Counted from the stretch's first letter, positions 6,207 through 52,223 are shown. The stretch is 64,000 bases of DNA from a virus (IMGVR_UViG_3300045988_103931:10801-74800), one strand, 5' to 3'. The notes: generated by a model not told the origin, from the letters alone. Program-made: numbers and translations.

Positions 6207-6276
6207 GTGAACGATGATTTACAGATTGTTCACAAAATACTGTGGAATACATACCGCGGGAGAGGTATGATATAAT
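6207..6276 (+). promoter_or_regulatory. conserved promoter/operator cassette, copy A
   Basis: GTGAACGAT-GATTTACA-GATTGTTCAC inverted repeat, GGAAT, ATACC-N8-GGTAT, TATAAT. Conserved CACaAGGAA..ACAAAC leader up to ATG 6322. Confidence 0.6.
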
Positions 6277-6321
6277 CACGATAAGGAAAACACAAACACA
6301 AATCCAAAGAAGGGGAAGAAA

Positions 6322-6558
6322 ATGTATATCGGTAATAATTACATGGTAAACACAAAACTTGCAAATGGAATCTATCACAACGAATACTTCATTGACGAAA
6401 AAAGCGCGATTGCATATGCAAACGAATGCTACAAACGCGGAGACATGGAGATTGAGCTACTGCGTCGTGGGAGATGTGGCTACTACAGAATGAAAAAAAT
6501 CGTCAGAAAGTTCGCTGGAAGTCCGTTATATGAAGTTGTATACGACGATTTCCGTTGA
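6322..6558 (+). CDS. hypothetical protein (first gene of cassette-A unit)
   Basis: ATG with AAGGGGAAG SD. 78 aa. No recognisable motif. Confidence 0.6.
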   Translation: MYIGNNYMVNTKLANGIYHNEYFIDEKSAIAYANECYKRGDMEIELLRRGRCGYYRMKKIVRKFAGSPLYEVVYDDFR

Positions 6559-6579
6559 ATTTGAGAATGACGCAGACGC

Positions 6580-6648
6580 AGAGTGACCGCCGAAAGGCGG
6601 GTAATGCGAGTACCGAAAACGGTAGCGGTCACAACTCCGCAAGAAAGG
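6580..6648 (+). promoter_or_regulatory. conserved structured intergenic RNA element, copy S1
   Basis: AGAGTGA-CCGCC-gaaa-GGCGG-GTAATGCG..TACCG-aaaa-CGGTA-GCGG-tcacaact-CCGC-aAGAAAGG. Homologous to 15828-15916 and 31589-31658. Confidence 0.55.
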
Positions 6649-6658
6649 AACAAACAAA

Positions 6659-6925
6659 ATGAAATACGCAAGAAATATATACATACGCAATATATTTAGC
6701 AGTATGTACTCATTCGATTCACGGGATTCTGAATATCGCGAAATCGACCTCAAAGAAGCTACACGAAAGATGAATTCTCTCGAAAATATCTTAACGTGGT
6801 TCACAAAATATGAAACAGGAAGCGCAATAGTCTATTTACACCATAAAATTGAAAAAGAGAAAGACATTCAATATTGGAACACCATGGTTAAGGAAACAAT
6901 CGGAGAATATATTTTCTACAAATAA
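6659..6925 (+). CDS. hypothetical protein
   Basis: ATG preceded by the AGAAAGGA SD of element S1. 88 aa. Confidence 0.6.
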   Translation: MKYARNIYIRNIFSSMYSFDSRDSEYREIDLKEATRKMNSLENILTWFTKYETGSAIVYLHHKIEKEKDIQYWNTMVKETIGEYIFYK

Positions 6926-6978
6926 AGAATAAATTCACCGAACGAGAGCGGTTATTCTCCCGTAGAAAGGACTAAAAT

Positions 6979-8893: not shown

Positions 8894-8959
8894 ATGAACA
8901 ACGATTTACAAATTGTTTATAAAATAATGCAGAATTAAGTGCCGCTTGTGTGGTATAAT
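8894..8959 (+). promoter_or_regulatory. conserved promoter/operator cassette, copy B
   Basis: ATGAACAAC-GATTTACA-AATTGTTTAT, GCAGAAT, GTGCCGC-ttgt-GTGGTATAAT. Confidence 0.6.
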
Positions 8960-9013
8960 ATATACAGAACAAAAGAAAAGCCTACGGGCAAAGCGAGAAA
9001 GAGAGAAAATAAA

Positions 9014-9546: not shown

Positions 9547-10407
9547 GTGTTTTATATAGGAGATTGGGATAAGCAGAAAATCATTTCCCACTACATCGAA
9601 AACAATGATGTAAAAAAAGTCTTGGTGATATACAGCAAGCAACGGAATGAATATGAAACGGGCATAGAAACCCGATATATAGAATTACATCTTGCTAAAG
9701 CACATGAGACGCACTACGAGTTATTACAGTACATAAACAGATACACGCTAATTGTTATGGATGATTTGTTAGTATCACAGCAAAGATACATGAACGAATA
9801 TAACTGTGTTGCTAACTTTGTCAATCAAACCCCGCACAGACTTGTATTTAACTATCTCCCGTTTATTGAGCAAAAAGACGATTTCATGATTCTGCTTGAC
9901 TTTTACAACAGAGTGAAATACAAGGGCGAAAGATTTGATTATGAGCTTTTCAAAGACTTCAAATACTTCATCAAGCCTGTGCATATTAAAGTCAATTTTC
10001 ATGAAGTGGAGGTAATGAATGAAGATGTAAGAAATTACAATCAGCAAAGGGATGAATTGTTCGCCGAAATCGGTCTTGCAAATCCGCAGATAATCCCTAA
10101 TAGATTATCCGCAATGTGTGGAGATGTAAAGTATAAAACCGCTCCATTCGATAAAATGATTGCGAGAAATCGGCGATATAAGAATTTAACCACATTCAAG
10201 GATTCTGCGGTTAATCCGATTCTGGAATTTCCCGTTAAAAGACAAGACTTTGTTGAGTGGATTTCAAGAACGAAACAGACGGAGATTGATGTATTAACAA
10301 GCCAGTTGAGCATGGATGAATGGTATAAACAGGATTATCTGAACTGGATAGAAAGGCTTGAAGAATTTTATGATAAGGCAAACATTTATCGGAATAAACG
10401 TAGTTGA
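9547..10407 (+). CDS. orphan protein X1 (first gene of triad 1)
   Basis: GTG 9547, 6 nt after GAAAGG. Paralogous to 12046-12765 (YIGDWDKQKI / YIGEYDKTKI; HRLVFNYLP..DDFMILLDF / HRLIFNYFP..EDFMILYDM). No motif I recognise. Confidence 0.6.
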   Translation: MFYIGDWDKQKIISHYIENNDVKKVLVIYSKQRNEYETGIETRYIELHLAKAHETHYELLQYINRYTLIVMDDLLVSQQRYMNEYNCVANFVNQTPHRLVFNYLPFIEQKDDFMILLDFYNRVKYKGERFDYELFKDFKYFIKPVHIKVNFHEVEVMNEDVRNYNQQRDELFAEIGLANPQIIPNRLSAMCGDVKYKTAPFDKMIARNRRYKNLTTFKDSAVNPILEFPVKRQDFVEWISRTKQTEIDVLTSQLSMDEWYKQDYLNWIERLEEFYDKANIYRNKRS

Positions 10408-11509
10408 AGCAACAAAGAAAAGAATCGAGTGGATTTTTGATAACTTTGAACACATAGTCGTAAGCATTAGTGGCGGGAAAGATAGCACGGTTCTTGCGTA
10501 CATGACATTGCAAGAAGCGCACAAGAGAAACCGAAAGATAGGCATTTTCTTCCTCGATGAAGAAGTGGTCTATCAAAGCACGGTAGATCAGGTGCGGTAC
10601 TTGATGGAACTTTATCCAGAAAACACGGTGAAGATGTGGTATCAATTGGAGTTTAATCTCACAAATGCCACAAGCCTTGATGAAACACAGTTTAAAGTAT
10701 GGGATAAAGACAAGCAAGATATTTGGATGAGACCGAAAGAACCGGACAGCATTACATATCCAACATGGGACTTGAGCAAAGAAACAATCCGCAACAAAAA
10801 GAAAGGTTTTGGGTTTTTCGACGCTATGGATAACTTTGTAGCCACATACACAAATACGGCATATCTAATCGGATTAAGAGCAGCCGAAAGTTTGAACAGG
10901 TGGAGAGCGGTTACAAAGTACGCAGGAATCCCAAACGTCTATTGGAGTACATACAGAAACAACGGCAATTATAACCTATATCCGCTGTACGATTGGAACT
11001 TTCAAGACATTTGGAAATATCTTTACGAAAACAAAATAAGATACTCCAAAATATACGATTATCAGTATAAAAAAGGACTTGGTATGAAAGACATGAGAGT
11101 GTCGAGTTTGATACACGAAAAGTCATTTCATTCACTTGTCGAACTTCCGGAGTTTGAGCCGGAAACATACGATAAGCTAATAATCAGAACACAGGGGGTG
11201 CAGGTCGGAAATATCTATGGCAAAGACGATTTAATGCTCAGATGTAGGAAATTGCCTAAAAATTTCAAAGATTGGATGGAATACAGAGATTTTCTGTTAT
11301 CGACTGTAAAGGAAGACGATATAAAAGCGATATTTGAAAAGCGTTTCTCGAAACAGCTTAACAACAACTACGTCGCGCGTCAGCAGTGCAAACAGCTAAT
11401 ACTGAATGACTATGAAAACAATCTTGGAATAACGAACGGCGAGGACAAACGAGAAAAAGAACTGAAATACTGGAAAGGAGTTTTATATGGTGAAAGTTAT
11501 ACAGAGTGA
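10370..11509 (+). CDS. PAPS-reductase-family PP-loop enzyme, IbrA-like (triad 1)
   Basis: VSISGGKDSTV PP-loop, IGLRAAESLNRWR, long C-terminal extension (ARQQCKQLILNDYENN). Start uncertain (ATG 10370 or TTG 10358) and overlaps X1. Confidence 0.7.
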   Translation: MIRQTFIGINVVEATKKRIEWIFDNFEHIVVSISGGKDSTVLAYMTLQEAHKRNRKIGIFFLDEEVVYQSTVDQVRYLMELYPENTVKMWYQLEFNLTNATSLDETQFKVWDKDKQDIWMRPKEPDSITYPTWDLSKETIRNKKKGFGFFDAMDNFVATYTNTAYLIGLRAAESLNRWRAVTKYAGIPNVYWSTYRNNGNYNLYPLYDWNFQDIWKYLYENKIRYSKIYDYQYKKGLGMKDMRVSSLIHEKSFHSLVELPEFEPETYDKLIIRTQGVQVGNIYGKDDLMLRCRKLPKNFKDWMEYRDFLLSTVKEDDIKAIFEKRFSKQLNNNYVARQQCKQLILNDYENNLGITNGEDKREKELKYWKGVLYGESYTE

Positions 11510-12044
11510 AAAAGGAGAAATTAAACTACCATGTTTCGATGTGGTGTTGGTTGACATTGATAAGGTTGTGGCGAATGACTACAACCCCAACCATGTCAGC
11601 GTAAAAAATATGCAGTTACTTGAAGAAAGCATTATAAGCAACGGCTTTTGTTTCCCTGTGGTAACCATACATGATGAAAAGAAAGACGAGTACATTATTA
11701 TAGACGGCTTTCACAGATACACGATATTCAAGGACTATCTAAAGGCAAAGCAGCTTCCTGTTGTTGTACTCGACCACGATTTGAGCAAACGTATGATTGC
11801 AACGGTTCAGTTTAACAGAGCAAGAGGAGTTCATCATGTGGAGCTTATGGGGGATCTTGTGAAAGCGTTGGCGGGAGAGGGAATAACAGACGAACAAATA
11901 GCTGTAAGCCTTGGAATGGAAATGGAGGAAGTGTACAGGCTGAAGCAAATCACGGGCGTTGCAGAGCTGTTTAAAAATCAGTTATACAGTCCTGCATGGG
12001 AAATGAAAGACATGGACAAGAACGTGTACTATCAGGGAGATTGA
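11487..12044 (+). CDS. ParB/Srx-fold protein, IbrB-like (triad 1)
   Basis: AAAGGAG SD. ANDYNPNHV...YIIIDGFHRY...QFNRARG, typical ParB N-terminal domain. Overlaps the upstream gene by 23 nt. Confidence 0.7.
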   Translation: MVKVIQSEKGEIKLPCFDVVLVDIDKVVANDYNPNHVSVKNMQLLEESIISNGFCFPVVTIHDEKKDEYIIIDGFHRYTIFKDYLKAKQLPVVVLDHDLSKRMIATVQFNRARGVHHVELMGDLVKALAGEGITDEQIAVSLGMEMEEVYRLKQITGVAELFKNQLYSPAWEMKDMDKNVYYQGD

Positions 12045-12045
12045 T

Positions 12046-12765
12046 ATGAAAAAAATATACATAGGAGAATACGACAAAACAAAAATTGTCAATGAATATA
12101 TCTCCGAAAACAAAATTGATAAGGTATATATTATCGGAGACGATATATCAATTGACTTTGAGAACAAGGAAAACATAAAATTTTCCGATACCATAATGTA
12201 CAAATATTTCTACAGGCTATTGCAGGAAATCAATAAGGATTCGTTAATCGTACTTAATGAGTGCTTAAAAAAGCAGAACAGATACGATTTAACATATAAC
12301 TGTATCAGACGGTATATGTTACAGACAGACCACCGCTTAATCTTCAACTATTTCCCCATCGTCAAAGAACAAGAAGATTTTATGATCTTGTACGATATGC
12401 TTCAAAACAATCCGTTCTTGAAAGAACCCTATAAATATATCACTGAATTTGAAAATGTTGAAGTTAGCAAGGTTGTATTTGATGTCAACAAAACCGACGT
12501 TGTTTTGCCAGATGAGTGTGAAGCAGAGTATGAGCGTGAAAAAGAAAACCTCATCGGCAAGGTGAATAAAGACCCCGATATAATTCCGAGAGGGTTGTTA
12601 AGATTCAGCGAAAAGAAGAAACCAAAGAACTATGACAGTTTGGCGAAAATTAAGCCAGTGATGAACGTGGCAGTAAGTCAGTTAAAGGTTGATACGTATT
12701 ATTACAACGAATTACTAAACTTTAGAAAGGAATTGACCGATGTCTTACAAAAAATACACGGATAA
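12046..12765 (+). CDS. orphan protein X2 (first gene of triad 2)
   Basis: AGGGAGA SD. Paralogue of X1. Confidence 0.6.
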   Translation: MKKIYIGEYDKTKIVNEYISENKIDKVYIIGDDISIDFENKENIKFSDTIMYKYFYRLLQEINKDSLIVLNECLKKQNRYDLTYNCIRRYMLQTDHRLIFNYFPIVKEQEDFMILYDMLQNNPFLKEPYKYITEFENVEVSKVVFDVNKTDVVLPDECEAEYEREKENLIGKVNKDPDIIPRGLLRFSEKKKPKNYDSLAKIKPVMNVAVSQLKVDTYYYNELLNFRKELTDVLQKIHG

Positions 12766-13855
12766 AACCGTGTTAGAAGCAACGAAAGAGAGAATCAGCT
12801 ACATTTTCGATGAGTTTGAAAACATCATTGTTTCTATCAGCGGGGGGAAAGACAGCGAAGTGTTGTGTTATCTTGCACTTCAAGAAGCAAGGAAAAGAGG
12901 CAGAAAGATAGGCATATTCTTTTTGGATGAAGAAGTTGTTTATAAATCCACCATAGAAATGGTGGAGTACCTCATGAGTATGTACCCCGAAAACACAAAC
13001 AGATTTTGGTTGCAAATTCCTTTTAATCTCACAAACTCAACAAGTTTCGCTGACGGGCAGGTGAATTGTTGGGAACAGGCAAAAAAACCTGTATGGATGC
13101 ACAAGAGAAGTGAGAAGAACATACTCAGAAAAACATGGTCGCATGAGACGCATATCGCAGACAAAAACAAAGGTTTTGGCTTCTACGATGTAATGTACAA
13201 CTTTGAATATTCATTTGAAAACACAGCTTTTCTTGTCGGATTAAGAGCGGACGAAAGTTTGAACCGATACAGAACAATGGTAAAGCGCAAAGGCTACAAG
13301 GACATTTACTGGAGTACAAAAAGAGCAGGAACAAATTATTCGTTTTATCCTCTTTATGACTGGGGATTCAATGATGTATGGAAGTTCATCGGAGAAAACA
13401 ATCTGAAATATCATAAGTTTTATGATTTTGCCTACAAAAAAGGAAAGCACATCAATGAGATCAGAGTGTCGAGCTTGACGCACGAAAAAAGTTTCAAGTC
13501 GATTCAAGACTTGCCCGAATTTGAGTTTGATACATACGAAAAACTATTGAAGCGTATAAAAGGCATTTCGTTTGCGCAAGAAACCGCAAAAGACAGGAAA
13601 ATGTTTAAGGTGCAGAAGCTCCCGCAGAACTATAAGTCGTGGAGAGAGTACAGAGATTTTCTACTTGCAACATACCCAGACGAAAGCAAGAAACCTATTT
13701 TTGAAAAACGATTTGCCAAGCATCTTGACAATGAATTTGTTGCAAGACAGCAGTGCAAACAGCTTGTTCTTAACGATTACGAAAATAACTTCCCGGTAAA
13801 AAACACAGAAGACCCGATTATGGAAAGAATCAATTATTGGAGGAAAGTGTTATGA
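12740..13855 (+). CDS. PAPS-reductase-family PP-loop enzyme, IbrA-like (triad 2)
   Basis: VSISGGKDSEV, VGLRADESLNRYR, ARQQCKQLVLNDYENN. Roughly half the residues are identical to 10370-11509 by eye. Confidence 0.7.
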   Translation: MSYKKYTDKTVLEATKERISYIFDEFENIIVSISGGKDSEVLCYLALQEARKRGRKIGIFFLDEEVVYKSTIEMVEYLMSMYPENTNRFWLQIPFNLTNSTSFADGQVNCWEQAKKPVWMHKRSEKNILRKTWSHETHIADKNKGFGFYDVMYNFEYSFENTAFLVGLRADESLNRYRTMVKRKGYKDIYWSTKRAGTNYSFYPLYDWGFNDVWKFIGENNLKYHKFYDFAYKKGKHINEIRVSSLTHEKSFKSIQDLPEFEFDTYEKLLKRIKGISFAQETAKDRKMFKVQKLPQNYKSWREYRDFLLATYPDESKKPIFEKRFAKHLDNEFVARQQCKQLVLNDYENNFPVKNTEDPIMERINYWRKVL

Positions 13856-14385
13856 AGATAGATATTCCGTGCCTTAACATCAAACTTGTTGACAGAGATA
13901 TGTTACAGGCGAATAATTACAACCCGAACAATGTGCCAAAGGATAAGATGGAATTGCTCAAGCAGTCGATTATCGACAATGGTTTTTGCTTTCCTATTGT
14001 AACGATTTGGAGCGAGGAAGATGAGAAGTATATCATCATTGATGGATTCCATAGATATACAATGTGTATGCCGGAGTGGTTGGACATAAAACAAGTGCCT
14101 GTCGTTGTGTTGAAACACGATTTAAGTCAGCGAATGGCAGCAACGATTCAGTTCAACAAGGCAAGGGGAGTTCATGCCGTCGACGGTGACGCAGAAATTG
14201 TTAGAAGTCTAATCGAACAGGGATTGAGCGAGGAAGAAATAAGCAAGCACCTTGGTATCGACATGGAAACCGTACTGAGATATAAGCAACTCACAGGAAT
14301 TGTTGAACTGTTCAAGAACGTTGAATATAGCAAGAGTTGGGAAGTCGGAGAGTTCGACGGAGAGGATGAAAAGGAGGATAGATAA
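13852..14385 (+). CDS. ParB/Srx-fold protein, IbrB-like (triad 2)
   Basis: GGAGGAAAG SD. ATGA overlap with the upstream stop. ANNYNPNNV...YIIIDGFHRY...QFNKARG. Confidence 0.7.
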   Translation: MKIDIPCLNIKLVDRDMLQANNYNPNNVPKDKMELLKQSIIDNGFCFPIVTIWSEEDEKYIIIDGFHRYTMCMPEWLDIKQVPVVVLKHDLSQRMAATIQFNKARGVHAVDGDAEIVRSLIEQGLSEEEISKHLGIDMETVLRYKQLTGIVELFKNVEYSKSWEVGEFDGEDEKEDR

Positions 14386-15017
14386 TGAGCAAATGGGAAT
14401 ACGGCGGCGTATATAAGAATTACGATATGGATGGAGAAATCAATATCGGCGGCGGTATCTTGAAAGTGCATAATATTTTCGATCCGCTCCCTGATTTCAT
14501 GAAAAAAGCGGATTGCATTTTCTGTGACCCGCCTTGCTCACAAGGAAACATAAACAGCTTTTACACAAAAGCCGATAGAACAGATTATCAGACGAGCTAT
14601 GACCCGTTTGAAAATCGTTTCTTTGAGTGTATAGATGAGATAAAGCCTAACACTTTGTTTGTTGAAGTGTTCGCACAAAATGCAGCGAATTTCGCGGACA
14701 GATGCAATGATAGATATGCAAATATCCATGTCTACGAAACTACTTATTATCACAAAAAAGATTGCAAGTGTTTTATCATAGCTTGTTCAAACGTCATCGA
14801 CATACATAATCTGCCGTTTGAGGACATGGACGAAGAGGACGTTATAGCGTGGATAGGAAAGAATATTAATTATGAGTGTATTGGTGATTTATGTATGGGC
14901 AGAGGACTTGTAGGATGGCACTCATATATCAACGGAAAGCCTTTTGTCGGAACGGAAATAAACAAAAAACGGCTTGCTGTGCTTATTGATAAGATAACAA
15001 AACATCCGAAAAATTGA
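14385..15017 (+). CDS. methyltransferase-like protein with DPPC motif (permuted, beta-class order)
   Basis: ATAATG coupling to ParB-2. CIFCDPPCS where amino-MTases carry (D/N/S)PP(Y/F/W). C-terminal GDLCMGRGLVG...FVGTEIN resembles the SAM-binding FxGxG motif followed by G.E motif. Confidence 0.5.
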   Translation: MSKWEYGGVYKNYDMDGEINIGGGILKVHNIFDPLPDFMKKADCIFCDPPCSQGNINSFYTKADRTDYQTSYDPFENRFFECIDEIKPNTLFVEVFAQNAANFADRCNDRYANIHVYETTYYHKKDCKCFIIACSNVIDIHNLPFEDMDEEDVIAWIGKNINYECIGDLCMGRGLVGWHSYINGKPFVGTEINKKRLAVLIDKITKHPKN

Positions 15018-15040
15018 CTATACCGCCAAAATGGTATATT
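15014..15040 (+). promoter_or_regulatory. promoter with ATACC-N8-GGTAT operator
   Basis: TTGACT, then ATACCGCCAAAATGGTAT, with TGgTATATT as an extended -10. Upstream of the XRE regulator gene. Confidence 0.55.
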
Positions 15041-15107
15041 ATGAACTAAACAAAGTAAAGAGTGTTTGCTTATCGTGAACACTCTTTAAGTCTGAAAGGG
15101 TGATACG

Positions 15108-15338
15108 ATGACGTTAAAAGAAAAAAGGATTGAATCAGGATATACACAAAGTGAACTATCAGAAAAAGCAGGAATGAGCCTTAGAACATTACAGCACTTT
15201 GAAAGAAATTATAGACTGCCAGACAAAGCGCAACTTGAAACGCTCTGCAAACTTGCAATCGTGCTTAATTGTCCGATTGACGATTTAATTGTGAACGACG
15301 ATCTGAGAGAGCTATACCGAAAAGCGAAAACACTATAA
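15108..15338 (+). CDS. XRE-family HTH transcriptional regulator
   Basis: GYTQSELSEKAGMSLRTLQHFERN is a classic HTH_3. 76 aa. Confidence 0.8.
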   Translation: MTLKEKRIESGYTQSELSEKAGMSLRTLQHFERNYRLPDKAQLETLCKLAIVLNCPIDDLIVNDDLRELYRKAKTL

Positions 15339-15352
15339 AGGGCATGGAAACA

Positions 15353-15378
15353 AAACCGACATAAACTGTCGGTTTTTG
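15353..15378 (+). terminator. rho-independent terminator
   Basis: AAACCGAC-ataaact-GTCGGTTT followed by TTG. Confidence 0.65.
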
Positions 15379-15412
15379 TGTGAGGTGAAATTTCAGAAAA
15401 TTCTCTCTAATT

Positions 15413-15477
15413 ATGAACAGTGATTTACATTTTGTTTACAAAATAATACAGAATTAATACCGCTAAAGTGGTAAAAT
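15413..15477 (+). promoter_or_regulatory. conserved promoter/operator cassette, copy C
   Basis: ATGAACAGT-GATTTACA-TTTTGTTTA, ACAGAAT, ATACCGCTAAAGTGGTAAAAT. Nearly identical to copy G over about 44 nt. Confidence 0.6.
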
Positions 15478-15532
15478 ATAATCACAAGGAAGAACAAAAC
15501 ACAAACACAAAACAGGAAGAGAGAAAGAAAAA

Positions 15533-15820
15533 ATGAAACGCATTAATTTTGATAAGAACATTAAGGCAAGCACGATTGAGAAAGCATCAAAGAAGTTTGC
15601 TGAATATCTTGCAAAAAATGGTTACGAATGGGCGGCAGAAGAAATTATTGAGAGCGTTGAGAACGGGTATTTCTATTGCTCGAACGCGACAATAGCTAAT
15701 CTTGTCAAAGGCGGCAGACCCGTTCACCCCGAAACAAGCGACTGGACATACTACTGGGGAATTGAAAACGTAGATGGTAATGCCTGGTACGCATGGTTTA
15801 TCGAAAGAGTTGAAGATTAA
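15533..15820 (+). CDS. hypothetical protein (first gene of cassette-C unit)
   Basis: Purine-rich leader/SD. 95 aa. Confidence 0.6.
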   Translation: MKRINFDKNIKASTIEKASKKFAEYLAKNGYEWAAEEIIESVENGYFYCSNATIANLVKGGRPVHPETSDWTYYWGIENVDGNAWYAWFIERVED

Positions 15821-15827
15821 TAATTGT

Positions 15828-16401: not shown

Positions 16402-16453
16402 ATTAAATAAACCAAGCCGGAGTGGTTATTCTCCGCCAGAAAGGAATAAAACA

Positions 16454-24602: not shown

Positions 24603-24668
24603 TGTGAATTCCTATTTACATTTTGTTTACAAAATATCGTAGAATTAGTGCCGCAAAAGAGGTATAAT
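24603..24668 (+). promoter_or_regulatory. conserved promoter/operator cassette, copy D
   Basis: TGTGAATTCCT-ATTTACA-TTTTGTTTACAAAAT, GTAGAAT, GTGCCGCAAAAGAGGTATAAT. Confidence 0.55.
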
Positions 24669-24712
24669 ATATACATACAAAAAAGAAAACAAAATCGCGG
24701 AGGAAATAAGAC

Positions 24713-28836: not shown

Positions 28837-29160
28837 TTACTCTTCCATCCGCAAATACAAGCGCATTATCTCTTTGTATAACCTCTCTCGCTCTTCTTTT
28901 GGAATGCCTTCATTCAGAAATACACTCTTTGCTCGGCTCAACAGCTCAAATCCCTCATCCTGCGTTTCTACGCCAAAGTAAGAAAGACCGACTTTGTAAA
29001 ACTCCGCAAACCGTTTCAGGTCGGATAAATGTGGTGAGCGCCGACCGCACTCATAATTGCTGATTGTTGCGCGACTTATTCCGAGCTTTTCGGACAATTC
29101 TTGCTGAGTTAATTTTCTCCCCTTTCTCAAAGTTTTTAATTTTTCTCCAATGAAACACAT
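28837..29160 (-). CDS. CI-like XRE-family repressor
   Basis: LTQQELSEKLGISRATISNYECG HTH. GGAGGTGA SD. Upstream of int and divergent from the early genes. Confidence 0.8.
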   Translation of the reverse strand: MCFIGEKLKTLRKGRKLTQQELSEKLGISRATISNYECGRRSPHLSDLKRFAEFYKVGLSYFGVETQDEGFELLSRAKSVFLNEGIPKEERERLYKEIMRLYLRMEE

Positions 29161-29199
29161 TGATTACATCACCTCCCATATGATACATCATAGCACATT

Positions 29200-29292
29200 C
29201 TACAATGTGTTTCAAATTGTAATCATTTTATAAAAAATAATCGAATATATGAAACATTTACCATTGAACGAGAAACAAATATTCGTATAATC
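29200..29292. promoter_or_regulatory. immunity-region divergent promoter/operator region
   Basis: Rightward TTGAAC-16-TATAAT (29264-29291). GAAACA(T/A)(T/A)T half-sites at 29251 and 29272, and inverted at 29208. Confidence 0.55.
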
Positions 29293-29340: not shown

Positions 29341-29538
29341 TTGAAAAGCGTAAGAAAACACACCATTCATGATAGACTGTCGATTGATATTGCGTTAGCT
29401 GAAAACGCAAAAACCACAGAAGATAGGAAAGCATTAGCTTATCAAGCAATCGGTGCGGCGGAAATTGCCGTTGAATTTGACTTAATTACATACATGGAAT
29501 TTGAGGGTTACATAAATAGCATATTTTCGATTTTATGA
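29341..29538 (+). CDS. hypothetical protein (first rightward gene)
   Basis: TTG start, 8 nt after GAGGTG. 65 aa. No obvious HTH. Confidence 0.45.
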   Translation: MKSVRKHTIHDRLSIDIALAENAKTTEDRKALAYQAIGAAEIAVEFDLITYMEFEGYINSIFSIL

Positions 29539-29589: not shown

Positions 29590-29655
29590 ATGAACATTGA
29601 TTTACAAAATGTTCACACAAAAACTGTAGAAACAATACCGCTGTTGTGGTATAAT
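29590..29655 (+). promoter_or_regulatory. conserved promoter/operator cassette, copy E
   Basis: ATGAACATT-GATTTACA-AAATGTTCA (perfect inverted repeat), GTAGAAA, ATACCGCTGTTGTGGTATAAT. Confidence 0.6.
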
Positions 29656-29704
29656 ATAGGTACAGTAAAGGAAAGCAAAACGCACGATAGAGAGGAAAAG
29701 AAAA

Positions 29705-31280: not shown

Positions 31281-31345
31281 ATGAACACGGTTTTACAATC
31301 TGTTTACAAAATAATACAGAAACGATACCTCAAATGCGGTATAAT
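31281..31345 (+). promoter_or_regulatory. conserved promoter/operator cassette, copy F
   Basis: ATGAACACG-GTTTTACA-ATCTGTTTA, ACAGAAA, ATACCTCAAATGCGGTATAAT. Confidence 0.6.
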
Positions 31346-31393
31346 ATAGTCACAAGGAAAGAACAAAACAAACCGCAGAAAGAGAGAAAGAAA

Positions 31394-31585: not shown

Positions 31586-31588
31586 AGC

Positions 31589-36982: not shown

Positions 36983-37047
36983 GTGAACAGTGATTTACAT
37001 TTTGTTTACAAAATAATACAGAATCAATACCTCTCACGCGGTATAAT
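36983..37047 (+). promoter_or_regulatory. conserved promoter/operator cassette, copy G
   Basis: GTGAACAGT-GATTTACA-TTTTGTTTA, ACAGAAT, ATACCTCTCACGCGGTATAAT. Confidence 0.6.
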
Positions 37048-37077
37048 ATAGATACAAAGAAAGAGAGGTAATACAAC

Positions 37078-39253: not shown

Positions 39254-39326
39254 CGTTTAAGGTGATACGAAATGAAACTATTTACAAATAAGTAATAACA
39301 TAACGAAGAAATGTTAATAAAGTGTT

Positions 39327-39455
39327 TGGTATAATTTCATTACAAGGTTGTAGTTAGAAGTTGCGGTCTGGCTACGACTAAGATGAATAACTGCAACCTT
39401 AGCCTTTGGGGTATATCGAGCCGCAACCTTGATATATTCCGAAGGTTTTTATTTT
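39327..39455 (+). promoter_or_regulatory. extended -10 promoter plus structured leader/attenuator upstream of the replication genes
   Basis: TGgTATAAT (39327-39335). Repeated AAGGTTG / GCAACCTT segments allow alternative pairings. AACCTT-N11-AAGGTT plus TTTTTATTTT at 39425-39455. Confidence 0.45.
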
Positions 39456-39471
39456 GAGAGGGTGAATAAGC

Positions 39472-43202: not shown

Positions 43203-43698
43203 CGAAAGTCTTGTTACAGATAATTTAAACCTCGCACGATATGTTGCAAGAAAGTATCTCAACACTGGAATGGAATACGATGATTTAGAATCAATTGCTT
43301 TCATAGGACTTATAAAAGCGGCTAAAAGTTTTGATGAAAGCAAAGGCTATACATTTTCTACATATTCTGTACGTTGTATCGAAAACGAGATAAGATACTG
43401 TCTGAGGAAGAAAAGCATACGCGCCGAATCATTAGAAGAACCGATACAAGACAATCAGATTCTCGCCGACACCGTTAAAGATGAAACTGATACTTTGGAT
43501 GAATTTGTAATAAGAGAAACGTTGAAGTGTGCAATAAATGAATTAAATGATAGAGAAAGATTTATCGTTAATATGCTTTACTTCAAAAATCCACCGTTGA
43601 CGCAACAGGAAGTTGCTCAAAAATTAAACACAAATCAATCTCAAGTGAGTAAAACGCTCAAACGCGCGTTAAATAAGATTAGGGAATATGTGACGTAA
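43195..43698 (+). CDS. sigma-70 family sigma factor (regions 2 and 4)
   Basis: DDLESIAFIGLIKAAKSFDESKGYTFSTYSVRCIENEI (region 2). LTQQEVAQKLNTNQSQVSKTLKRALNKI (region 4 HTH). Confidence 0.85.
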   Translation: MYDESLVTDNLNLARYVARKYLNTGMEYDDLESIAFIGLIKAAKSFDESKGYTFSTYSVRCIENEIRYCLRKKSIRAESLEEPIQDNQILADTVKDETDTLDEFVIRETLKCAINELNDRERFIVNMLYFKNPPLTQQEVAQKLNTNQSQVSKTLKRALNKIREYVT

Positions 43699-44565: not shown

Positions 44566-44991
44566 GTGAAACAATTGGATGAAATAATTGAATTGCGGCG
44601 TGATATAAATAGCATTATCGAACGGCTTTCGGAACTAAAACAAATGACGCAACCGAGAGTACAAACAATTACCGATATGCCCCGTGGCGGCGGTGATAGA
44701 AAAAATGTCATAGAAGAATACATAATAAAGTCGGAAAGACTAAGCAAAAAACTTGATGATAAGAAACATGAGCTTGAAAAGAAATGGACGGTTGTCAAAG
44801 ACCTTTCACAAAAAGCACAACTCACAGAAGCGCAACAGGAGATGATAAAAGCGAGGTTCTATAATGCCTTGCCGTGGAAAAAATGCGTAGAAGTCATGAA
44901 AAAATTATATCCTACAACGGTATGGTCTGAGCAAAAATTATTCCGTATGTATTATGGCGTATTATCTAAGTTTAATAAAACAAAAATATGA
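44566..44991 (+). CDS. late-gene transcriptional regulator-like protein (ArpU/RinA/DUF1492-type, tentative)
   Basis: GTG after GAGGTGG. ITDMPRGGGDRKNVIEEYI and LTEAQQEMIKARF resemble Firmicute phage late activators. Confidence 0.4.
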   Translation: MKQLDEIIELRRDINSIIERLSELKQMTQPRVQTITDMPRGGGDRKNVIEEYIIKSERLSKKLDDKKHELEKKWTVVKDLSQKAQLTEAQQEMIKARFYNALPWKKCVEVMKKLYPTTVWSEQKLFRMYYGVLSKFNKTKI

Positions 44992-45011
44992 AATATTGTG
45001 AAAAATAGCAA

Positions 45012-45040
45012 TAGACAAAAAGTTAATAATATGATAAAAT
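45012..45040 (+). promoter_or_regulatory. sigma-A-type promoter
   Basis: TAGACA-17 nt-TAAAAT. Confidence 0.5.
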
Positions 45041-45096
45041 GTTATTGTGGAATAACAATATAAACATAATTTGTTTTTCATATTCTCTCTTTCTTG

Positions 45097-45128
45097 AACC
45101 CTGTCGAAGATATCGGCGGGGTTTTCTT
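45097..45128 (+). terminator. terminator/attenuator about 85 nt downstream of the promoter
   Basis: AACCCTGTCGA-agata-TCGGCGGGGTT (two G.U pairs that work only in the + strand RNA) followed by TTCTT. Confidence 0.5.
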
Positions 45129-45238
45129 ATGATTATTTTTCGGTTTTAAGGGTGTTAACGCTATGAAATGTCAGGGGCGGGAGACGGTAGCGTATATAGG
45201 GGTAAATGTTTGCAACAAAAAACGGCACAGGAGTGATA

Positions 45239-46482: not shown

Positions 46483-46794
46483 TTGATAGAGAACACGCAA
46501 CAAGTGAATTTGATTGAAGCAGACAAACAAATCGTTTTATACTGCCCTATCGGAAAAGATTATTATACGGCGATTGTAAACATTGAGTTTATCCCGAATG
46601 AGTATTATATGGACTACATCAAACTCGATCAATTTCTTAATAGATTGAGCGGACTGAGCCTAACAATTGAAGATGCTGCAAGAGATATTTACGATGAATT
46701 GCGGAGTTACAGACCGTCAAAAGCGAAAGTTACGATTGAAGCATTTAGCAACACTCACCTACACGTCAAGGTAACAAAGGGTGATAACATTTGA
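46483..46794 (+). CDS. QueF-like T-fold protein (preQ0 reductase or QueF-L-type amidinotransferase)
   Basis: LYCPIGKDYYTAIVNIEFIPNEYYMDYIKLDQFL parallels QueF CP.TGQPD...Y.P....ESKSLKLYL. The catalytic Cys is kept and the NADPH (QueF) motif is degenerate. Only 103 aa. Confidence 0.5.
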   Translation: MIENTQQVNLIEADKQIVLYCPIGKDYYTAIVNIEFIPNEYYMDYIKLDQFLNRLSGLSLTIEDAARDIYDELRSYRPSKAKVTIEAFSNTHLHVKVTKGDNI

Positions 46795-47429
46795 GGAAGA
46801 CGCAAGAATCTTTAAATATGCTAACAATTGTATTTATCGTATCGCTTGTTATCTCAAACGTAATAACAGGCAAGGTCATTGATACTGGGATAACATTATT
46901 CGGAAATGCAGTGACGATAGCAGGAGCGGTTATCTGCTATCCAGTGTGTTATCTTATCACGGACATTGTTGGCGAGGTATGGGGCAAACGTGAAGCAAAC
47001 AAAATTGTAAGATACGGCTTTATCGGTCAGGTGATAGCAACACTCATTGTTATTATTACAACCTACACGCCGTATATCGATTCTGAAATGCAAGCGGCAT
47101 ATGTAAAGCTATTGGGGCAGAACTGGGTGTTCGTTGTGGGCAGTCTATCGGCTTACCTTGTTAGTCAGTATCTGGATGTTCACATATTCCACAAACTTAA
47201 AAGCAAGAGCAATAAACATAAATGGTTGAGAAACAACGCAAGTACAATGTTATCTCAATTTGTAGATACAGCGATTTTTATTACTATTGCTTTCGGGTTT
47301 GGGTTTGGATGGATATTCGATAATCAAATTGCATTATTTAATATGCTCATTGGGCAATACGTCATTAAGTTATTTATTGCCATTCTGGACACTCCATTCT
47401 TCTATTATTTCACAAGAGAGCGGCGTTAA
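46791..47429 (+). CDS. yhhQ: queuosine-precursor transporter (YhhQ/DUF165 family)
   Basis: Six or more TM segments. YPVCYLITDIVGEVWG, SQYLDVHIFHKLK....WLRNNASTMLSQFVDTAIFITIAF match the YhhQ pattern (Q.LDV.VF, WLR..ST, DT..F..IAF). Confidence 0.75.
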   Translation: MRKTQESLNMLTIVFIVSLVISNVITGKVIDTGITLFGNAVTIAGAVICYPVCYLITDIVGEVWGKREANKIVRYGFIGQVIATLIVIITTYTPYIDSEMQAAYVKLLGQNWVFVVGSLSAYLVSQYLDVHIFHKLKSKSNKHKWLRNNASTMLSQFVDTAIFITIAFGFGFGWIFDNQIALFNMLIGQYVIKLFIAILDTPFFYYFTRERR

Positions 47430-50042: not shown

Positions 50043-50044
50043 TT

Positions 50045-50185
50045 ATGTGCAACCATATATGGAAAAAAGCATTCGAGAACTATGTGTGCGTTCGGTGCGG
50101 ACTTACCCGTTTGCCAGACGGACGCATATTTTTTGATAGGGGATTACCGAATTACAAAGCAAGTAAAAAAAGGAGAAAGAAATGA
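50045..50185 (+). CDS. small Cys-containing basic protein (46 aa)
   Basis: Below the track cutoff. Fills the terL-to-next-gene gap exactly. ATGA overlap with 50182. Confidence 0.4.
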   Translation: MCNHIWKKAFENYVCVRCGLTRLPDGRIFFDRGLPNYKASKKRRKK

Positions 50186-50451
50186 ACGAACAAGATTTTT
50201 ACAAGATGGTAAAGAATGCTGTTGTTGAGTATGCTAACAAGCACCTTGACAAAACAGACAAAGCGCAAATTACGCCTGATGATGTGTTTATCGTTTGGAT
50301 GTGTAAAACATTACAAAACAGCAAGGCTCTTGCGTCCACTACATTGTTTGATGGTATGTACTACGAAGTGACATACAACGGGGATAAACATGAATACTAT
50401 TTTGACGCATATAAGAAGTGGGATAATTTTGCGGTTAAAATCGGTGAATGA
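50182..50451 (+). CDS. hypothetical protein
   Basis: AAAGGAGAAAG SD. 89 aa. Confidence 0.6.
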   Translation: MNEQDFYKMVKNAVVEYANKHLDKTDKAQITPDDVFIVWMCKTLQNSKALASTTLFDGMYYEVTYNGDKHEYYFDAYKKWDNFAVKIGE

Positions 50452-50472
50452 AATCGGTAGGGCGGTGAGAAA

Positions 50473-51951
50473 ATGACAAGAAACGAGATGGAGCTATATC
50501 CGAATTTCACAGGTGAGCTTGAAGCCATTCGCGAAACCGGAATAACAAAAGAGATTCTGCAAAAGATTATCCAAAAGCATAGACCGAACTCACTTTACAA
50601 CCGCCGTCTGTATAACAGATACAAGGCGATCTATGGCGGTGTGCCGATATTCGATAGGCAACCGCGCTATGAAGAAGAAAACCCGATCAATAATAGAATA
50701 AACAATGACTTTTTCAGTGAGATAGTAGATTTCAAAACAGGATACTTTGCAGGAGAGCCTATTTCATACAGCTACAGTGAAACGGATGAATCGGAAGAAT
50801 CCACAGGCGGTGTACAAGGTGTGGATAAAGCCGCAGAAGCATTGACCGACTTCACGACACGGAACAATATGTTCGGCATTGATATGGAAATAACAAAGAA
50901 TGCAAGTATCTATGGATACTCTGGCAGACTGTTCTATATCGACAAAGAGGGCATGGAACGGGTAATGCCTGTACCCGGTTATGAAACTATTATTCTCTCT
51001 GATACAAAGATAGCAGAGCCGGAATACGCTGTCAGGTATTATGAGGTCTCTGACATAAACGATACAAAGCAATGGATAGTAGAGTTTTACGATGATAAGA
51101 ACGTAACCACCTACAAGGGCGATTTAGGCTCTCTGGCGGAGATGGAAACACGTCCGCATATGTTTGACTATTGCCCGTTGCAAGGCATAGCAAATAACGC
51201 TGAACGCATGGGAGATGCTGAAAAGGTTCTTGAACTGATAGACGGCTATGACCGCGCTGTGTCTGACTGCTCCAACGAGATTGAAGCATTTGTTCATGCC
51301 TTGATGGTTGTCGGCGTGAATGTTGATGATGAAGTCATAACTAAAGCACAGAAAAGCGGAGTTCTTATTATTCCACAAGTTGGCTCTAATGTAGTGAATG
51401 ACCCTGTAAAGTGGGTGACGAAGAACATAGACGATGCTTTTTCCGAACACCATTTGCAACGGTTAGAGGATAACATATACAGATTCTCAAAAACGCCAAA
51501 CCTTAACAAAGACCTGTTCAGTAGTTCAAGCGGAAAAGCATTGAAATTCCGGTTGCACCAGTTGGAAACGAAAAGCGCAATGTTTGAGAGTTGCATGATG
51601 GATGCTGCTATTCATATGTGGCGTTTGCTTTCGTCCAGTTGGGCGAAAAAAGGAATCAAATTCGACCCGCTTCAAGTGGTTATGGATTTCAAGAGAAATT
51701 TCCCCACAGAGGTTTTGGAGAATGCGCAAGCTGCACAGGCTCTTATTGCCGCAGGACTGTCTAAGAAACAGGCATGGGCGATTGCTATTCCAGAAGTTGA
51801 CGATCCAGACTATGCGGAAGAAATGGCAAACGCTGAAAAGGAAGATAACATGGCGTTGTATGAAGCCGCTCAACAGGGATTTAATGATTCGGGCGATGAA
51901 CAAGATGAGCCAGACGAAAAAGACGAGCAAAAGAAGCAGGAGGGAATATGA
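50473..51951 (+). CDS. portal protein (SPP1 gp6-like)
   Basis: 492 aa. NRRLYNRYKAIYGGVPIFDR....NNRINNDFFSEIVDFKTGYFAGEPISY is typical of SPP1-family portals. Acidic C-terminus. Follows terL. Confidence 0.85.
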   Translation: MTRNEMELYPNFTGELEAIRETGITKEILQKIIQKHRPNSLYNRRLYNRYKAIYGGVPIFDRQPRYEEENPINNRINNDFFSEIVDFKTGYFAGEPISYSYSETDESEESTGGVQGVDKAAEALTDFTTRNNMFGIDMEITKNASIYGYSGRLFYIDKEGMERVMPVPGYETIILSDTKIAEPEYAVRYYEVSDINDTKQWIVEFYDDKNVTTYKGDLGSLAEMETRPHMFDYCPLQGIANNAERMGDAEKVLELIDGYDRAVSDCSNEIEAFVHALMVVGVNVDDEVITKAQKSGVLIIPQVGSNVVNDPVKWVTKNIDDAFSEHHLQRLEDNIYRFSKTPNLNKDLFSSSSGKALKFRLHQLETKSAMFESCMMDAAIHMWRLLSSSWAKKGIKFDPLQVVMDFKRNFPTEVLENAQAAQALIAAGLSKKQAWAIAIPEVDDPDYAEEMANAEKEDNMALYEAAQQGFNDSGDEQDEPDEKDEQKKQEGI

Positions 51952-52169
51952 TTAAACGCACAATTAAAGAAACTATCCGTGAGTATGACAAAGACGGCAA
52001 GGTGATTCGTGAAACAATTACAGAAACGTCGGAGTATGATAACACTGCTTACTGCCTGACTTGTCCTCATGGTCAGCCTGTCACTATAACCAATACGCCT
52101 ATACGCGATACGTCAGATTGGATAAAAGTGACTTGTACAAATTCAGCAACGACAAATTATGAACACTGA
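51948..52169 (+). CDS. hypothetical protein
   Basis: ATGA overlap with the portal gene. Confidence 0.55.
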   Translation: MIKRTIKETIREYDKDGKVIRETITETSEYDNTAYCLTCPHGQPVTITNTPIRDTSDWIKVTCTNSATTNYEH

Positions 52170-52223
52170 TTTACAAAGTGTTCATAAAATAACATAGAAT
52201 CCATACCGCGAAAAAGGTATAAT
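52159..52223 (+). promoter_or_regulatory. conserved promoter/operator cassette, copy H (inside the morphogenesis module)
   Basis: ATGAACACT-GATTTACA-AAGTGTTCAT (perfect 9-bp inverted repeat), ATAGAAT, ATACCGCGAAAAAGGTATAAT. Overlaps the 3' end of 51948-52169. Confidence 0.6.

What the first reader, a model, noticed from the sequence alone, without database searches (positions are those of the whole stretch)
6207..52223. Dispersed ~65-bp promoter/operator cassette (8 copies, plus 4 variant copies) that partitions the genome into transcription units
Seen:
- Copies lie at 6207, 8894, 15413, 24603, 29590, 31281, 36983 and 52159, all on the + strand and all intergenic or at gene ends.
- The shared layout is (A/G)TGAACAnn-GATTTACA-nnnTGTT(T/C)A, then AAAAT, then (T/C)AGAA(T/A), then ATACC-N8-GGTAT overlapping TGgTATAAT, then a conserved leader ATCACAAGGAA.GAACAAAAC.
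- The first inverted repeat is kept by compensatory changes: AACACT/AGTGTT in H, AACATT/AATGTT in E, AACGAT/ATTGTT in A.
- The ATACC-N8-GGTAT palindrome also overlaps the promoter of the XRE gene (15020-15037).
- A related variant (TTTAC(T/A)TTG(C/T)GTTCATAT...TGgTAT(C/A)AT) occurs at 5631, 5838, 6009 and 57299.
- The spacing from TTTACA to the TATAAT is about 31 nt. That is too long for a normal -35/-10 pair, although TTTACA-19 nt-(T/C)AGAAT could be a second promoter.

Inference: a phage-specific regulon with two operator palindromes per promoter. It may be read by the phage sigma factor (43195-43698) and/or by the XRE proteins. Copy H lies inside the morphogenesis module.
Basis: partly seen in the sequence, partly recalled or inferred. 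Interest (0 to 1): 0.65.

Follow-up and report, generated by a model that had tools for sequence, protein, structure and literature searches.

The report
Repeated regulated promoter cassette in gut phage
An uncultured human-gut temperate phage carries eight copies of a roughly 72-bp promoter unit with two built-in protein-binding palindromes; these most likely let phage regulators switch all its gene blocks together, and they also mark where related phages have swapped gene modules.

Summary
Eight co-oriented 72-bp cassettes sit at the stated coordinates; chance expects about 0.05-0.08 matches. All are in short intergenic gaps, 30-55 nt upstream of a start codon (about 190 nt for H).

I collected 41 distinct versions from related human-gut metagenome phages. 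The conserved plan is:
- AAWT-RTGAAC-N5-TTTACA-N5-TTYA-N-AAAAT, a dyad centred near -58;
- yWGAAw at the -35 position (TTGAAw in some relatives);
- RTRCCGC-N4-GYGGTAT (IR2), filling the 17-bp spacer and overlapping TATAAT;
- ATA, then CA at the predicted start.

Best reading: these are host sigma-A-type promoters with a weak -35 and often an extended -10.
- IR2 is most likely the operator of the small XRE protein (15108-15338). Its own canonical promoter carries the same palindrome.
- The upstream dyad is most likely a protein site, more probably for an activator. Sister lineages that lack it have a consensus -35.

Neither palindrome shows convincing RNA or DNA structure covariation. The small phage sigma factor is an unlikely reader. 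Only 3 of 8 cassettes follow a terminator, so "partitioning into units" is overstated. Homology breakpoints between relatives are enriched at cassettes (P = 6e-6), as with T4 PeSLs. This is a new variant of a known kind, of moderate interest.

The parts
6207..6278 (+). Cassette A. It follows a strong terminator (6163-6200) and precedes ORF 6322-6558.
8894..8966 (+). Cassette B. It starts 3 nt after the helicase stop codon. The left arm of IR2 is GTGCC.
15413..15484 (+). Cassette C, used as the reference copy. IR1 arms 15413-15421 and 15431-15439. Invariant TTTACA 15424-15429. The -35-position box CAGAAT 15449-15454. IR2 15457-15474. The -10 hexamer 15472-15477. Predicted start 15484.
24604..24675 (+). 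Cassette D. Its left arm has diverged (GTGAAT) and the IR2 left arm is GTGCC.
29590..29662 (+). Cassette E. It lies downstream of the CI/PR-like switch and orf65. The simple scan flags it as sigma-70-like (TAGAAA-17-TATAAT with TG).
31281..31352 (+). Cassette F. It starts 19 nt after the stop codon of 30303-31262.
36983..37054 (+). Cassette G. It heads the unit with SSB, replication genes, the sigma factor, terminase and portal.
52159..52230 (+). Cassette H. It lies between the portal operon and the MuF-like head gene. It has a perfect 9-bp IR1 and a 190-nt leader with a GC hairpin.
15014..15042 (+). The XRE gene's own promoter, TTGACT-17-TATTAT. The IR2 palindrome ATACCGCCAAAATGGTAT (15020-15037) fills the spacer.
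15108..15338 (+). XRE76, a 76-aa HTH_3 protein and the candidate IR2-binding regulator. It is followed by its own terminator (about 15352-15380).
28837..29160 (-). CI-like 107-aa HTH repressor, next to the serine integrase (27273-28817).
29187..29291 (.). Divergent canonical promoters of the CI switch: TTGAAA-17-TATGAT on the - strand and TTGAAC-16-TATAAT on the + strand. They contain no cassette and no IR2.
29341..29538 (+). orf65, the only gene between the PR-like promoter and cassette E. The model is an acidic three-helix bundle. Function unknown.
39272..39335 (+). Degenerate ninth copy (ATGAAAC-T-ATTTACA...AAGAAA...TGGTATAAT). It has no IR2 and no right arm, and it precedes the replication genes.
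5838..5880 (+). Variant promoter V1: TTTACT-N5-TTCATA-N5-TTCATA-N9-TATCAT, with TGn. It is followed by about 115 nt and a terminator (5977-6003).
6009..6051 (+). Variant promoter V2, with the same plan as V1. It is followed by about 75 nt and a terminator (6097-6130).
57299..57341 (+). Variant promoter V3. It is followed by an int-alpA-like RNA (57346-57417; 35.1 bits against a gathering score of 35.8).

Best explanation
Each cassette is a promoter for the host housekeeping (sigma-A type) RNA polymerase with two regulator-binding dyads built in.

Core promoter (shown from sequence). A near-perfect TATAAT is often preceded by TGn. A degenerate -35 box yWGAAw lies 17 bp upstream. A conserved CA marks the predicted start 7 nt downstream.

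IR2 (inferred). IR2 is RTRCCGC-N4-GYGGTAT. It fills the spacer and overlaps the -10 hexamer. It is the operator of the small XRE protein XRE76. XRE76 is made from its own terminator-bounded gene, whose consensus promoter carries the same palindrome. XRE76 would therefore autoregulate and shut all eight promoters at once.

IR1 (inferred, less certain). IR1 is AAWT-RTGAAC-N15-GTTYAY-AAAAT, with an invariant TTTACA at its centre, about 58 bp upstream of the start. It is a site for a second phage protein. That protein is most likely an activator that compensates for the poor -35. The alternative is a second repressor.

Second role. The same 70-bp sequence is repeated along a genome transcribed in one direction. 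It therefore also serves as a homologous crossover point, through which related phages exchange the gene modules that follow it.
For: Promoter anatomy.
- The promoter anatomy and gene context hold for all 8 copies.
- The scan tool independently scores cassette E as sigma-70-like.
- The information profile over 40 variants peaks at GGTATAATATA, at CA at +1, at GAA of the -35 box, at RTRCCGC and at the two half-sites.
- TGn is present in 21 of 34 variants. TTGAAA/TTGAAT stands at the -35 box in L027, L031 and L042.
- The phage's own tRNA, XRE and PR-like promoters use TTGACA-like -35 boxes with the same -10.

IR2 and the XRE gene.
- IR2 is in the XRE gene's own promoter in the window, in L008 and in L014.
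- Sister lineages L011 and L046 have small XRE genes flanked by dispersed promoters with a related ATACC/GGTAY palindrome over the -10. The inner spacing differs there, and in L011 the XRE recognition helix also differs.

Protein site rather than structure.
- IR2 is 94% self-complementary but shows no compensatory change.
- IR1 hairpin energy ranges from 0 to -9.7 kcal/mol, and 20% of copies do not fold.

IR1 as an activator site.
- Lineages without IR1 have a consensus -35. The lineage with IR1 has lost it.

Crossover role.
- 9 of 58 homology-breakpoint clusters fall in cassette windows that cover 2.3% of the span (P = 6e-6).
- Cassette H with its leader, and cassette D with its first ORF, occupy other positions in L040.
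Against: - There are no transcription or binding data. Every functional step is inferred.
- In this window only 3 of 8 copies have TGn, and the -35 box matches TTGACA at 2-3 of 6 positions. Unaided activity is uncertain.
- XRE76 is assigned to IR2 by adjacency and by the shared palindrome only. IR2 could instead be an activator site, as in P1 late promoters (from memory).
- No binder for IR1 was identified. CI107 is 99% identical in a phage with the other IR1 subtype. orf65 is an acidic helical bundle with no DNA-binding signature.
- The dyad centre (-58) depends on an unverified start site.
- One promoter class placed both before early genes and inside the head module (H) does not fit a simple early/late scheme.
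- Weak covariation at inner IR1 pairs (2 of 500 shuffles reach it) is not fully explained.
Confidence: 0.5

Rival explanations
1. Genome-wide immunity network. Both palindromes are repressor operators. For example, the CI-like repressor or HTH69 binds IR1 and XRE76 binds IR2. The prophage would then silence every promoter directly, as P1 C1 does at its 22 dispersed operators. No activator is involved.
For: - IR1 is a dyad centred exactly on a -35-like TTTACA, a typical operator layout.
- Words resembling the IR1 left half (ATGAAACA, GATTACA) recur three times in the CI switch region.
- The phage is temperate and encodes three small HTH proteins.
- P1 precedent: PMC8546580.
Against: - No usable -10 lies 16-19 bp downstream of the central TTTACA. 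The only fixed bases there are G, A, A, not the A2/T6 of a -10.
- The spacing of the switch-region words differs by 2 nt from the cassette.
- CI identity (99% in L037) does not follow the IR1 subtype.
- A site at -71 to -45 is poorly placed to block polymerase.
Confidence: 0.22
2. The cassettes are promoters for the phage-encoded sigma factor (43180-43698). Conserved boxes such as RTGAAC or TTTACA would serve as its -35 element.
For: - The phage encodes a 172-aa sigma with regions 2 and 4, most similar to sporulation sigmas.
- The canonical -35 is missing, while unusual upstream boxes are strongly conserved.
Against: - The -10 is the housekeeping TATAAT, with a TGn extension in most variants. 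From established knowledge, TGn is read by sigma region 3, which this protein lacks.
- The conserved upstream boxes are mirror images of each other. That pattern fits a dyad-symmetric binder, not a -35/-10 pair.
- The cassettes head every unit, including the one that contains the sigma gene and the early genes next to the CI switch.
- Sister lineages use plain TTGACA-17-TATAAT at the homologous sites.
Confidence: 0.1
3. The inverted repeats act as nucleic-acid structures in read-through transcripts or in single-stranded DNA. Possible roles are processing sites, pause or termination signals, or hairpin promoters. They would not be protein operators.
For: - G.T wobble positions occur on the + strand only: GTGCC/GGTAT in B and D, and G.T pairs in IR1.
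- IR2 folds to -6.6 kcal/mol on average and often has a GAAA loop.
- Five of 8 cassettes lie in read-through territory.
- There is weak IR1 covariation.
Against: - IR2 shows no double compensatory change in 34 sequences.
- The T opposite G in IR2 is explained by the TGn extended -10.
- IR1 stems are absent in 20% of variants and in the whole type II subfamily beyond TGAA/TTCA.
- No U-run follows either hairpin.
- The A/G changes at the IR2 left arm vary between orthologous copies, as simple transitions would.
Confidence: 0.06
4. The repeats are mainly recombination linkers or mobile sequence, spread by copying, with no special regulatory role beyond being ordinary promoters.
For: - Breakpoint enrichment at cassettes.
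- Extra cassette-plus-gene modules in L015 and L018.
- A 10-bp deletion between the two TTTACA boxes in one relative (L015, position 20098).
Against: - Position-specific conservation has dyad symmetry, while the bases between the boxes vary freely. That argues for selection on binding sites, not recent copying.
- IR2 occurs on its own in the XRE promoter.
Confidence: 0.07

Closest known systems
PeSLs (promoter-early stem-loops) of T4-type phages (PMC2839356, PMC4122927)
   Same: - Short conserved cassettes with a sigma-70-like promoter, repeated many times between genes.
- They mark the borders of variable gene modules, and recombination between copies shuffles those modules.
   Different: - PeSLs pair the promoter with a terminator stem-loop. 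Here only 3 of 8 copies follow a terminator, and the terminator is not part of the repeat.
- PeSLs have no operator palindromes.
- PeSLs are found in lytic phages of Gram-negative hosts.
Phage P1 C1 repressor with 22 dispersed operators, plus the small antirepressor Coi (PMC8546580)
   Same: - One repressor site is repeated across the genome, often over promoters, including the repressor's own promoter.
- A small protein made from a repressor-controlled promoter could act as an antirepressor. orf65 is a speculative counterpart.
   Different: - P1 operators are asymmetric 17-mers, whereas IR2 is a palindrome.
- P1 operators are not embedded in one fixed 72-bp promoter unit with a second dyad.
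- No binding has been shown here.
Mycobacteriophage stoperators (cluster A; PMC9283540, PMC6550527)
   Same: Many copies of a repressor site are spread over a largely co-directional genome and oriented with transcription.
   Different: - Stoperators are asymmetric 13-14 bp sites bound by a monomer.
- They lie within transcribed regions without promoters and block elongation.
- Here every site sits in a promoter and is dyad-symmetric.
Activator-dependent phage promoters without a -35: P2 late promoters with TGT-N12-ACA read by Ogr (PMC3931495), and phi29 p4 sites AACTTTTT-15 bp-AAAATGTT (PMC1904284)
   Same: - A few dispersed promoters have a good -10, a poor or absent -35 and a conserved upstream dyad.
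- The IR1 arms are separated by 15 bp, as in the p4 site.
- From memory, the P2 dyad is centred near -55, close to the predicted -58 here.
   Different: - The sequences are unrelated.
- No Ogr-like or p4-like protein was found.
- The cassettes precede early as well as late genes.
- An additional operator lies in the spacer.
Cluster O mycobacteriophage 17-bp palindromes with dispersed SigA promoters (PMC4351075)
   Same: A phage-specific palindrome is repeated tens of times, together with several strongly predicted housekeeping promoters. Its function is unknown.
   Different: There the palindrome and the promoters are separate elements, and many palindromes lie inside genes.

Membership tests
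Sigma-A/sigma-70 type promoter (extended -10 subclass) | -10 hexamer close to TATAAT | tested here: met
   TATAAT in 6 of 8 copies, TATGAT in A and TAAAAT in C. GGTA and AT are invariant in 34 variants.
Sigma-A/sigma-70 type promoter (extended -10 subclass) | TGn immediately upstream of the -10 | tested here: inconclusive
   3 of 8 copies in the window and 21 of 34 distinct family members.
Sigma-A/sigma-70 type promoter (extended -10 subclass) | -35 hexamer TTGACA at 16-18 bp | tested here: not met
   The box 17 bp upstream is yAGAAw (2-3 of 6 matches). It is TTGAAw in three relatives only.
Sigma-A/sigma-70 type promoter (extended -10 subclass) | Transcription start mapped downstream | not testable with these tools
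   No RNA data. The only evidence is a conserved CA 7 nt after the -10.
PeSL-type mobile regulatory cassette | Repeated promoter cassette at borders of variable gene modules | tested here: met
   9 of 58 breakpoint clusters fall in cassette windows (P = 6e-6). Modules are relocated in L040 and L015.
PeSL-type mobile regulatory cassette | Terminator stem-loop as part of the cassette | tested here: not met
   Terminators precede only A, C and weakly E, and lie outside the repeat. Neither IR1 nor IR2 is followed by a U-run.
Dispersed repressor-operator network (P1 C1 type) | Same site in many promoters and in the regulator's own promoter | tested here: met
   IR2 is in all 8 cassettes and in the XRE promoter. 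The same holds in L008 and L014.
Dispersed repressor-operator network (P1 C1 type) | Regulator shown to bind the site | not testable with these tools
   Needs EMSA or footprinting.
Stoperator | Asymmetric site inside transcribed regions without a promoter, oriented with transcription | tested here: not met
   IR2 is a palindrome and always overlaps a -10 hexamer.
Activator-dependent promoter without a -35 (P2 Ogr, Mu C, phi29 p4 type) | Good -10, poor -35 and a conserved dyad upstream of the -35 position | tested here: met
   Lineages without the dyad have a consensus -35.
Activator-dependent promoter without a -35 (P2 Ogr, Mu C, phi29 p4 type) | Cognate activator gene | tested here: inconclusive
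   No candidate was identified. orf65 gives a helical bundle with no informative fold match. HTH69 and XRE76 remain possible.
Promoter of a phage-encoded alternative sigma factor | -10/-35 consensus different from the housekeeping one, and use restricted to genes expressed after the sigma gene | tested here: not met
   The -10 is TATAAT. The cassettes head all units, including unit G, which contains the sigma gene.
LexA (Cheo) box or Rex/CRP-type operator | GAAC-N4-GTTC, or TTGTGAA-N4-6-TTCACAA | tested here: not met
   The half-site words are present (TTGTGAAC...GTTCACAA in copy A). They are 15-17 bp apart rather than 4-6. The consensus sequences are from memory.

The most novel reading that the evidence does not exclude
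The cassette is the head of a portable expression module: a regulated promoter, one short ORF of unknown function and, directly after its stop codon, a twister self-cleaving ribozyme. Such modules move between gut phages by recombination in the cassette. The ribozyme cuts the first cistron away from the rest of the transcript. This would give twister ribozymes a defined, testable biological role.
Probability: 0.2. Interest if true: 0.7.

Novelty: new variant of a known kind. Interest (0 to 1): 0.42.

Why it matters
- If the model holds, one or two small phage proteins control the whole 75-kb genome of a widespread but uncultured human-gut phage group through eight identical switches.
- That gives a compact, testable regulatory map for a phage with no cultured host.
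- It also gives a set of ready-made regulated promoters for Firmicutes-type hosts.
- It would be a Gram-positive, temperate-phage counterpart to T4 PeSLs, in which regulatory repeats double as crossover points that drive mosaicism.
- The association with twister ribozymes could help explain what these ribozymes do in nature.

Tried and rejected
- Close relatives in INPHARED phages by megablast: no match.
- Cassette patterns in IMG/VR and in GTDB genomes: chance hits only. A portal-based search of IMG/VR found nothing.
- Host identification through the lysin: no named relatives. The host stays unknown. A dockerin domain in a relative's lysin only hints at a Ruminococcus-like host.
- RNA or DNA structure for IR1 and IR2: rejected as the main explanation.
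- orf65 as a DNA-binding activator: there are only 5 close homologues and no family hit. The confident model (pLDDT 93) is a three-helix bundle whose fold matches (bS20, YlaN) all have E > 0.1. Uninformative.
- Small RNAs from the variant promoters pairing with the conserved cassette leaders: predicted duplex energies are no better than for other genes' start regions.
- A stop-free-frame test for 'cassette inside a gene': uninformative, because the frames run on into the downstream gene. I replaced it with the collections' own gene calls, which place every cassette between genes.
- The last about 10.8 kb of the phage, outside the window, could not be fetched. The total copy number per genome may therefore exceed eight.


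Full report
**What the window is.**
- The window has 40.6% G+C. It matches human-gut metagenome contigs of about 74.8 kb, for example ENA ERZ28564622 scaffold_178 and ERR321645 k127_165674.
- It is a temperate siphovirus-like phage. It encodes a large serine integrase and a CI-like repressor on the minus strand (27273-29160). It also encodes terminase, an SPP1-type portal, a major capsid protein, a small sigma factor, Erf/YqaJ recombination genes, SSB and a DnaC-like protein.
- Nearly all genes are on the + strand.
- Nothing similar is in INPHARED, IMG/VR or the GTDB genomes. Many relatives exist in gut metagenomes.

- Eight + strand copies lie at 6207, 8894, 15413, 24604, 29590, 31281, 36983 and 52159.
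- Each half of the cassette matches 8 times, against 0.05-0.08 expected by chance. A weight-matrix scan of both strands finds no other full copy.
- Every copy fills a short intergenic gap. The -10 hexamer ends 30-55 nt before a start codon, or about 190 nt for H.
- In relatives with gene calls, every copy also lies between genes.

**Anatomy from 41 distinct variants.** Numbering starts at the A of ATGAAC in copy C.
- AAWT lies at positions -4 to -1, and RTGAAC at 1-6.
- An invariant (A)TTTACA lies at 11-17.
- TTYA lies at 23-26, and AAAAT at 28-32.
- yWGAAw lies at 37-42.
- RTRCCGC-N4-GYGGTAT (IR2) lies at 45-62. TATAAT lies at 60-65, followed by ATA and a conserved CA at about 71-72.
- The left and right outer blocks are mirror images: AAWTRTGAAC and ATTTTRTRAAC on the other strand. 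IR1 is therefore a dyad of two 10-bp half-sites whose TGAA/TTCA cores are 21 bp apart. A non-symmetric TTTACA sits exactly at its centre.
- The three hexamers ATGAAC, TTTACA and TTYAYA start 11 bp apart.
- If transcription starts at the conserved CA, yWGAAw occupies -35 to -30, IR2 occupies -27 to -10, and the IR1 centre is near -58.

**Which polymerase.**
- The -10 is the housekeeping consensus.
- T-G at -15/-14 is present in 21 of 34 variants, but in only 3 of 8 copies in the window.
- The -35 box is a degenerate TTGACA, with G and A fixed. It is TTGAAA/TTGAAT in L027, L031 and L042.
- The tool's own sigma-70 scan picks up cassette E.
- The phage's XRE, PR-like and tRNA promoters use near-consensus -35 boxes with the same kind of -10.
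- The phage sigma is 172 aa with regions 2 and 4 only. It lies inside cassette unit G.
- I therefore assign the cassettes to host sigma-A-type holoenzyme. The phage-sigma idea is unlikely.

**IR2.**
- The same palindrome fills the spacer of the XRE gene's own consensus promoter (15014-15042). The same is true in L008 and L014.
- The XRE gene is a self-contained unit, with its own promoter and a strong terminator.
- Two sister lineages have dispersed, conserved promoters with a consensus -35 and a related palindrome over the -10. In L011 it is GTRCC-N7-GGTAC, and in L046 it is ATACCATATATGGTAT. Both lie next to small XRE genes.
- The L011 XRE differs from the window's in its recognition helix (QH becomes RS).
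- IR2 is 94% self-complementary but has no compensatory double change. The frequent T opposite G is explained by the TGn motif.
- The simplest reading is an operator for XRE76. XRE76 would autoregulate and repress all cassettes. This is inferred, not shown.

**IR1.**
- Only TGAA/TTCA is invariant.
- A 'type II' subfamily (L008, L040, L041 and others) has WWTTCA instead of TGTTYA, and no inner complementarity.
- Hairpin energies range from 0 to -9.7 kcal/mol, and 20% of copies do not fold. Covariation is weak.
- IR1 is therefore a protein site rather than a structure.
- Lineages that lack IR1 keep a consensus -35, while the lineage with IR1 has lost it. This favours an activator, as with P2 Ogr sites (PMC3931495). 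The 15-bp arm spacing equals that of the phi29 p4 site (PMC1904284).
- A repressor role remains possible.
- CI107 is 99% identical in L037, which has the type II arm, so CI does not track the subtype. XRE76 (68%), HTH69 (53%) and orf65 (about 70%) do differ between the two subtypes.
- orf65 is the only gene behind the canonical PR-like promoter next to CI. Its model is an acidic three-helix bundle with no informative match. It could be an antirepressor in the manner of P1 Coi (PMC8546580), but that is speculation.

**Transcription units.**
- Only A and C follow strong terminators, and E follows a weak one.
- B, D, F, G and H start 0-30 nt after a stop codon.
- The cassettes are better described as repeated internal promoters in a co-directional array than as unit boundaries.

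**Mosaic junctions.**
- Alignments of relatives to the window often break just after a cassette and its leader: at 6311, 8964, 15480-15538, 31388 and 37057.
- 9 of 58 breakpoint clusters lie in cassette windows that cover 2.3% of the span (P = 6e-6).
- In L040, cassette H with its leader sits after the helicase, and cassette D with its first ORF sits after the XRE gene.
- L015 and L018 carry extra cassette-plus-gene modules. One copy has a 10-bp deletion between the two TTTACA boxes.
- This parallels PeSL-mediated shuffling in T4-type phages (PMC2839356).

**Verdict.**
- The finding is real and non-random.
- The promoter and operator reading is largely right.
- The sigma-factor idea and the compensatory-change claim are not supported.
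- The kind of system is known: dispersed regulated phage promoters, as in P1 C1 operators, P2 late promoters and PeSLs.
- This two-dyad architecture in an uncultured gut-phage family has not been described, so I rate it a new variant of a known kind.

Noticed in passing
window 6577-6640, 15825-15909, 31586-31648 (+); also L017 1241-1293, L008 6331-6401, L014 9613-9670, 10189-10264 and 12032-12095: Type-P5 twister ribozymes score above the Rfam gathering score. In the window each lies directly after the first short ORF downstream of cassettes A, C and F. The same cassette-ORF-twister order recurs in relatives, with different ORFs.
   Followed up: partly
window 5838-6005 and 6009-6133: Two variant promoters, each with three TTYAYW boxes 11 bp apart and a TGnTATCAT. 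Each is followed by 75-115 nt and an intrinsic terminator, so they are candidate small RNA genes in the 870-bp non-coding gap after the lysin gene. Predicted pairing with the cassette leaders is not enriched.
   Followed up: partly
window 57299-57417: The third variant promoter lies directly after the major capsid gene. It is followed by an int-alpA-like RNA (RF02996, 35.1 bits, just below the gathering score of 35.8).
   Followed up: no
window 1640-1669, 6938-6967, 16412-16441, 37381-37410; similar elements in L046 at 8336, 8539, 9081, 13599 and 13833: A repeated roughly 35-nt element lies just before a ribosome-binding site (ACCR-AGC-SGGAG-YGGT-TATT-CTCCS-GTAGAAAGG). It can form an H-type pseudoknot. 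Both stems change in a compensatory way between copies (ACCG/CGGT against ACCA/TGGT; GGGAG/CTCCC against CGGAG/CTCCG). There is no Rfam match. Homology breakpoints also fall here (6937, 37358).
   Followed up: partly
window 54347-54862: Four tRNA genes (Gln, Lys, Asn, Trp) lie inside the head-gene region. A canonical TTGACA-17-TATAAT promoter lies among them, at about 54700.
   Followed up: no
window 5440-5530 and 39900-39975: An iteron-like run of GAAAAT/GATAAT/GAGAAT hexamers plus TATCGTACCACGAT is present twice. One copy is after the lysin gene and one is inside the putative replication-initiator gene. This is a possible origin of replication.
   Followed up: no
window 39336-39471: The degenerate ninth promoter is followed by a structured leader that ends in a terminator-like hairpin (AACCTT...AAGGTTTTTATTTT), just before the replication gene. 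This is a possible attenuator.
   Followed up: no
window 44985-45215: Between the sigma-factor block and the packaging genes lie a promoter-like site, a perfect palindrome (TGTTATTGTGGAATAACA) and a terminator-like hairpin. This is a candidate control region for late genes and a possible target of the phage sigma factor.
   Followed up: no
window 10358-14385, 17265-18005, 46791-47429: Two tandem pairs of IbrA-like (PAPS reductase plus DUF3440) and ParB-like genes, a radical-SAM gene and a Vut_1 (YhhQ-type) transporter. Relative L008 also carries a dGTP_diPhyd_N gene. Together they suggest that the phage modifies its DNA.
   Followed up: no
L011 18943-19992: A more distant relative carries a reverse transcriptase gene (RVT_1), and its lysin has a dockerin domain. 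The dockerin hints at a Ruminococcus-like host for that lineage.
   Followed up: no
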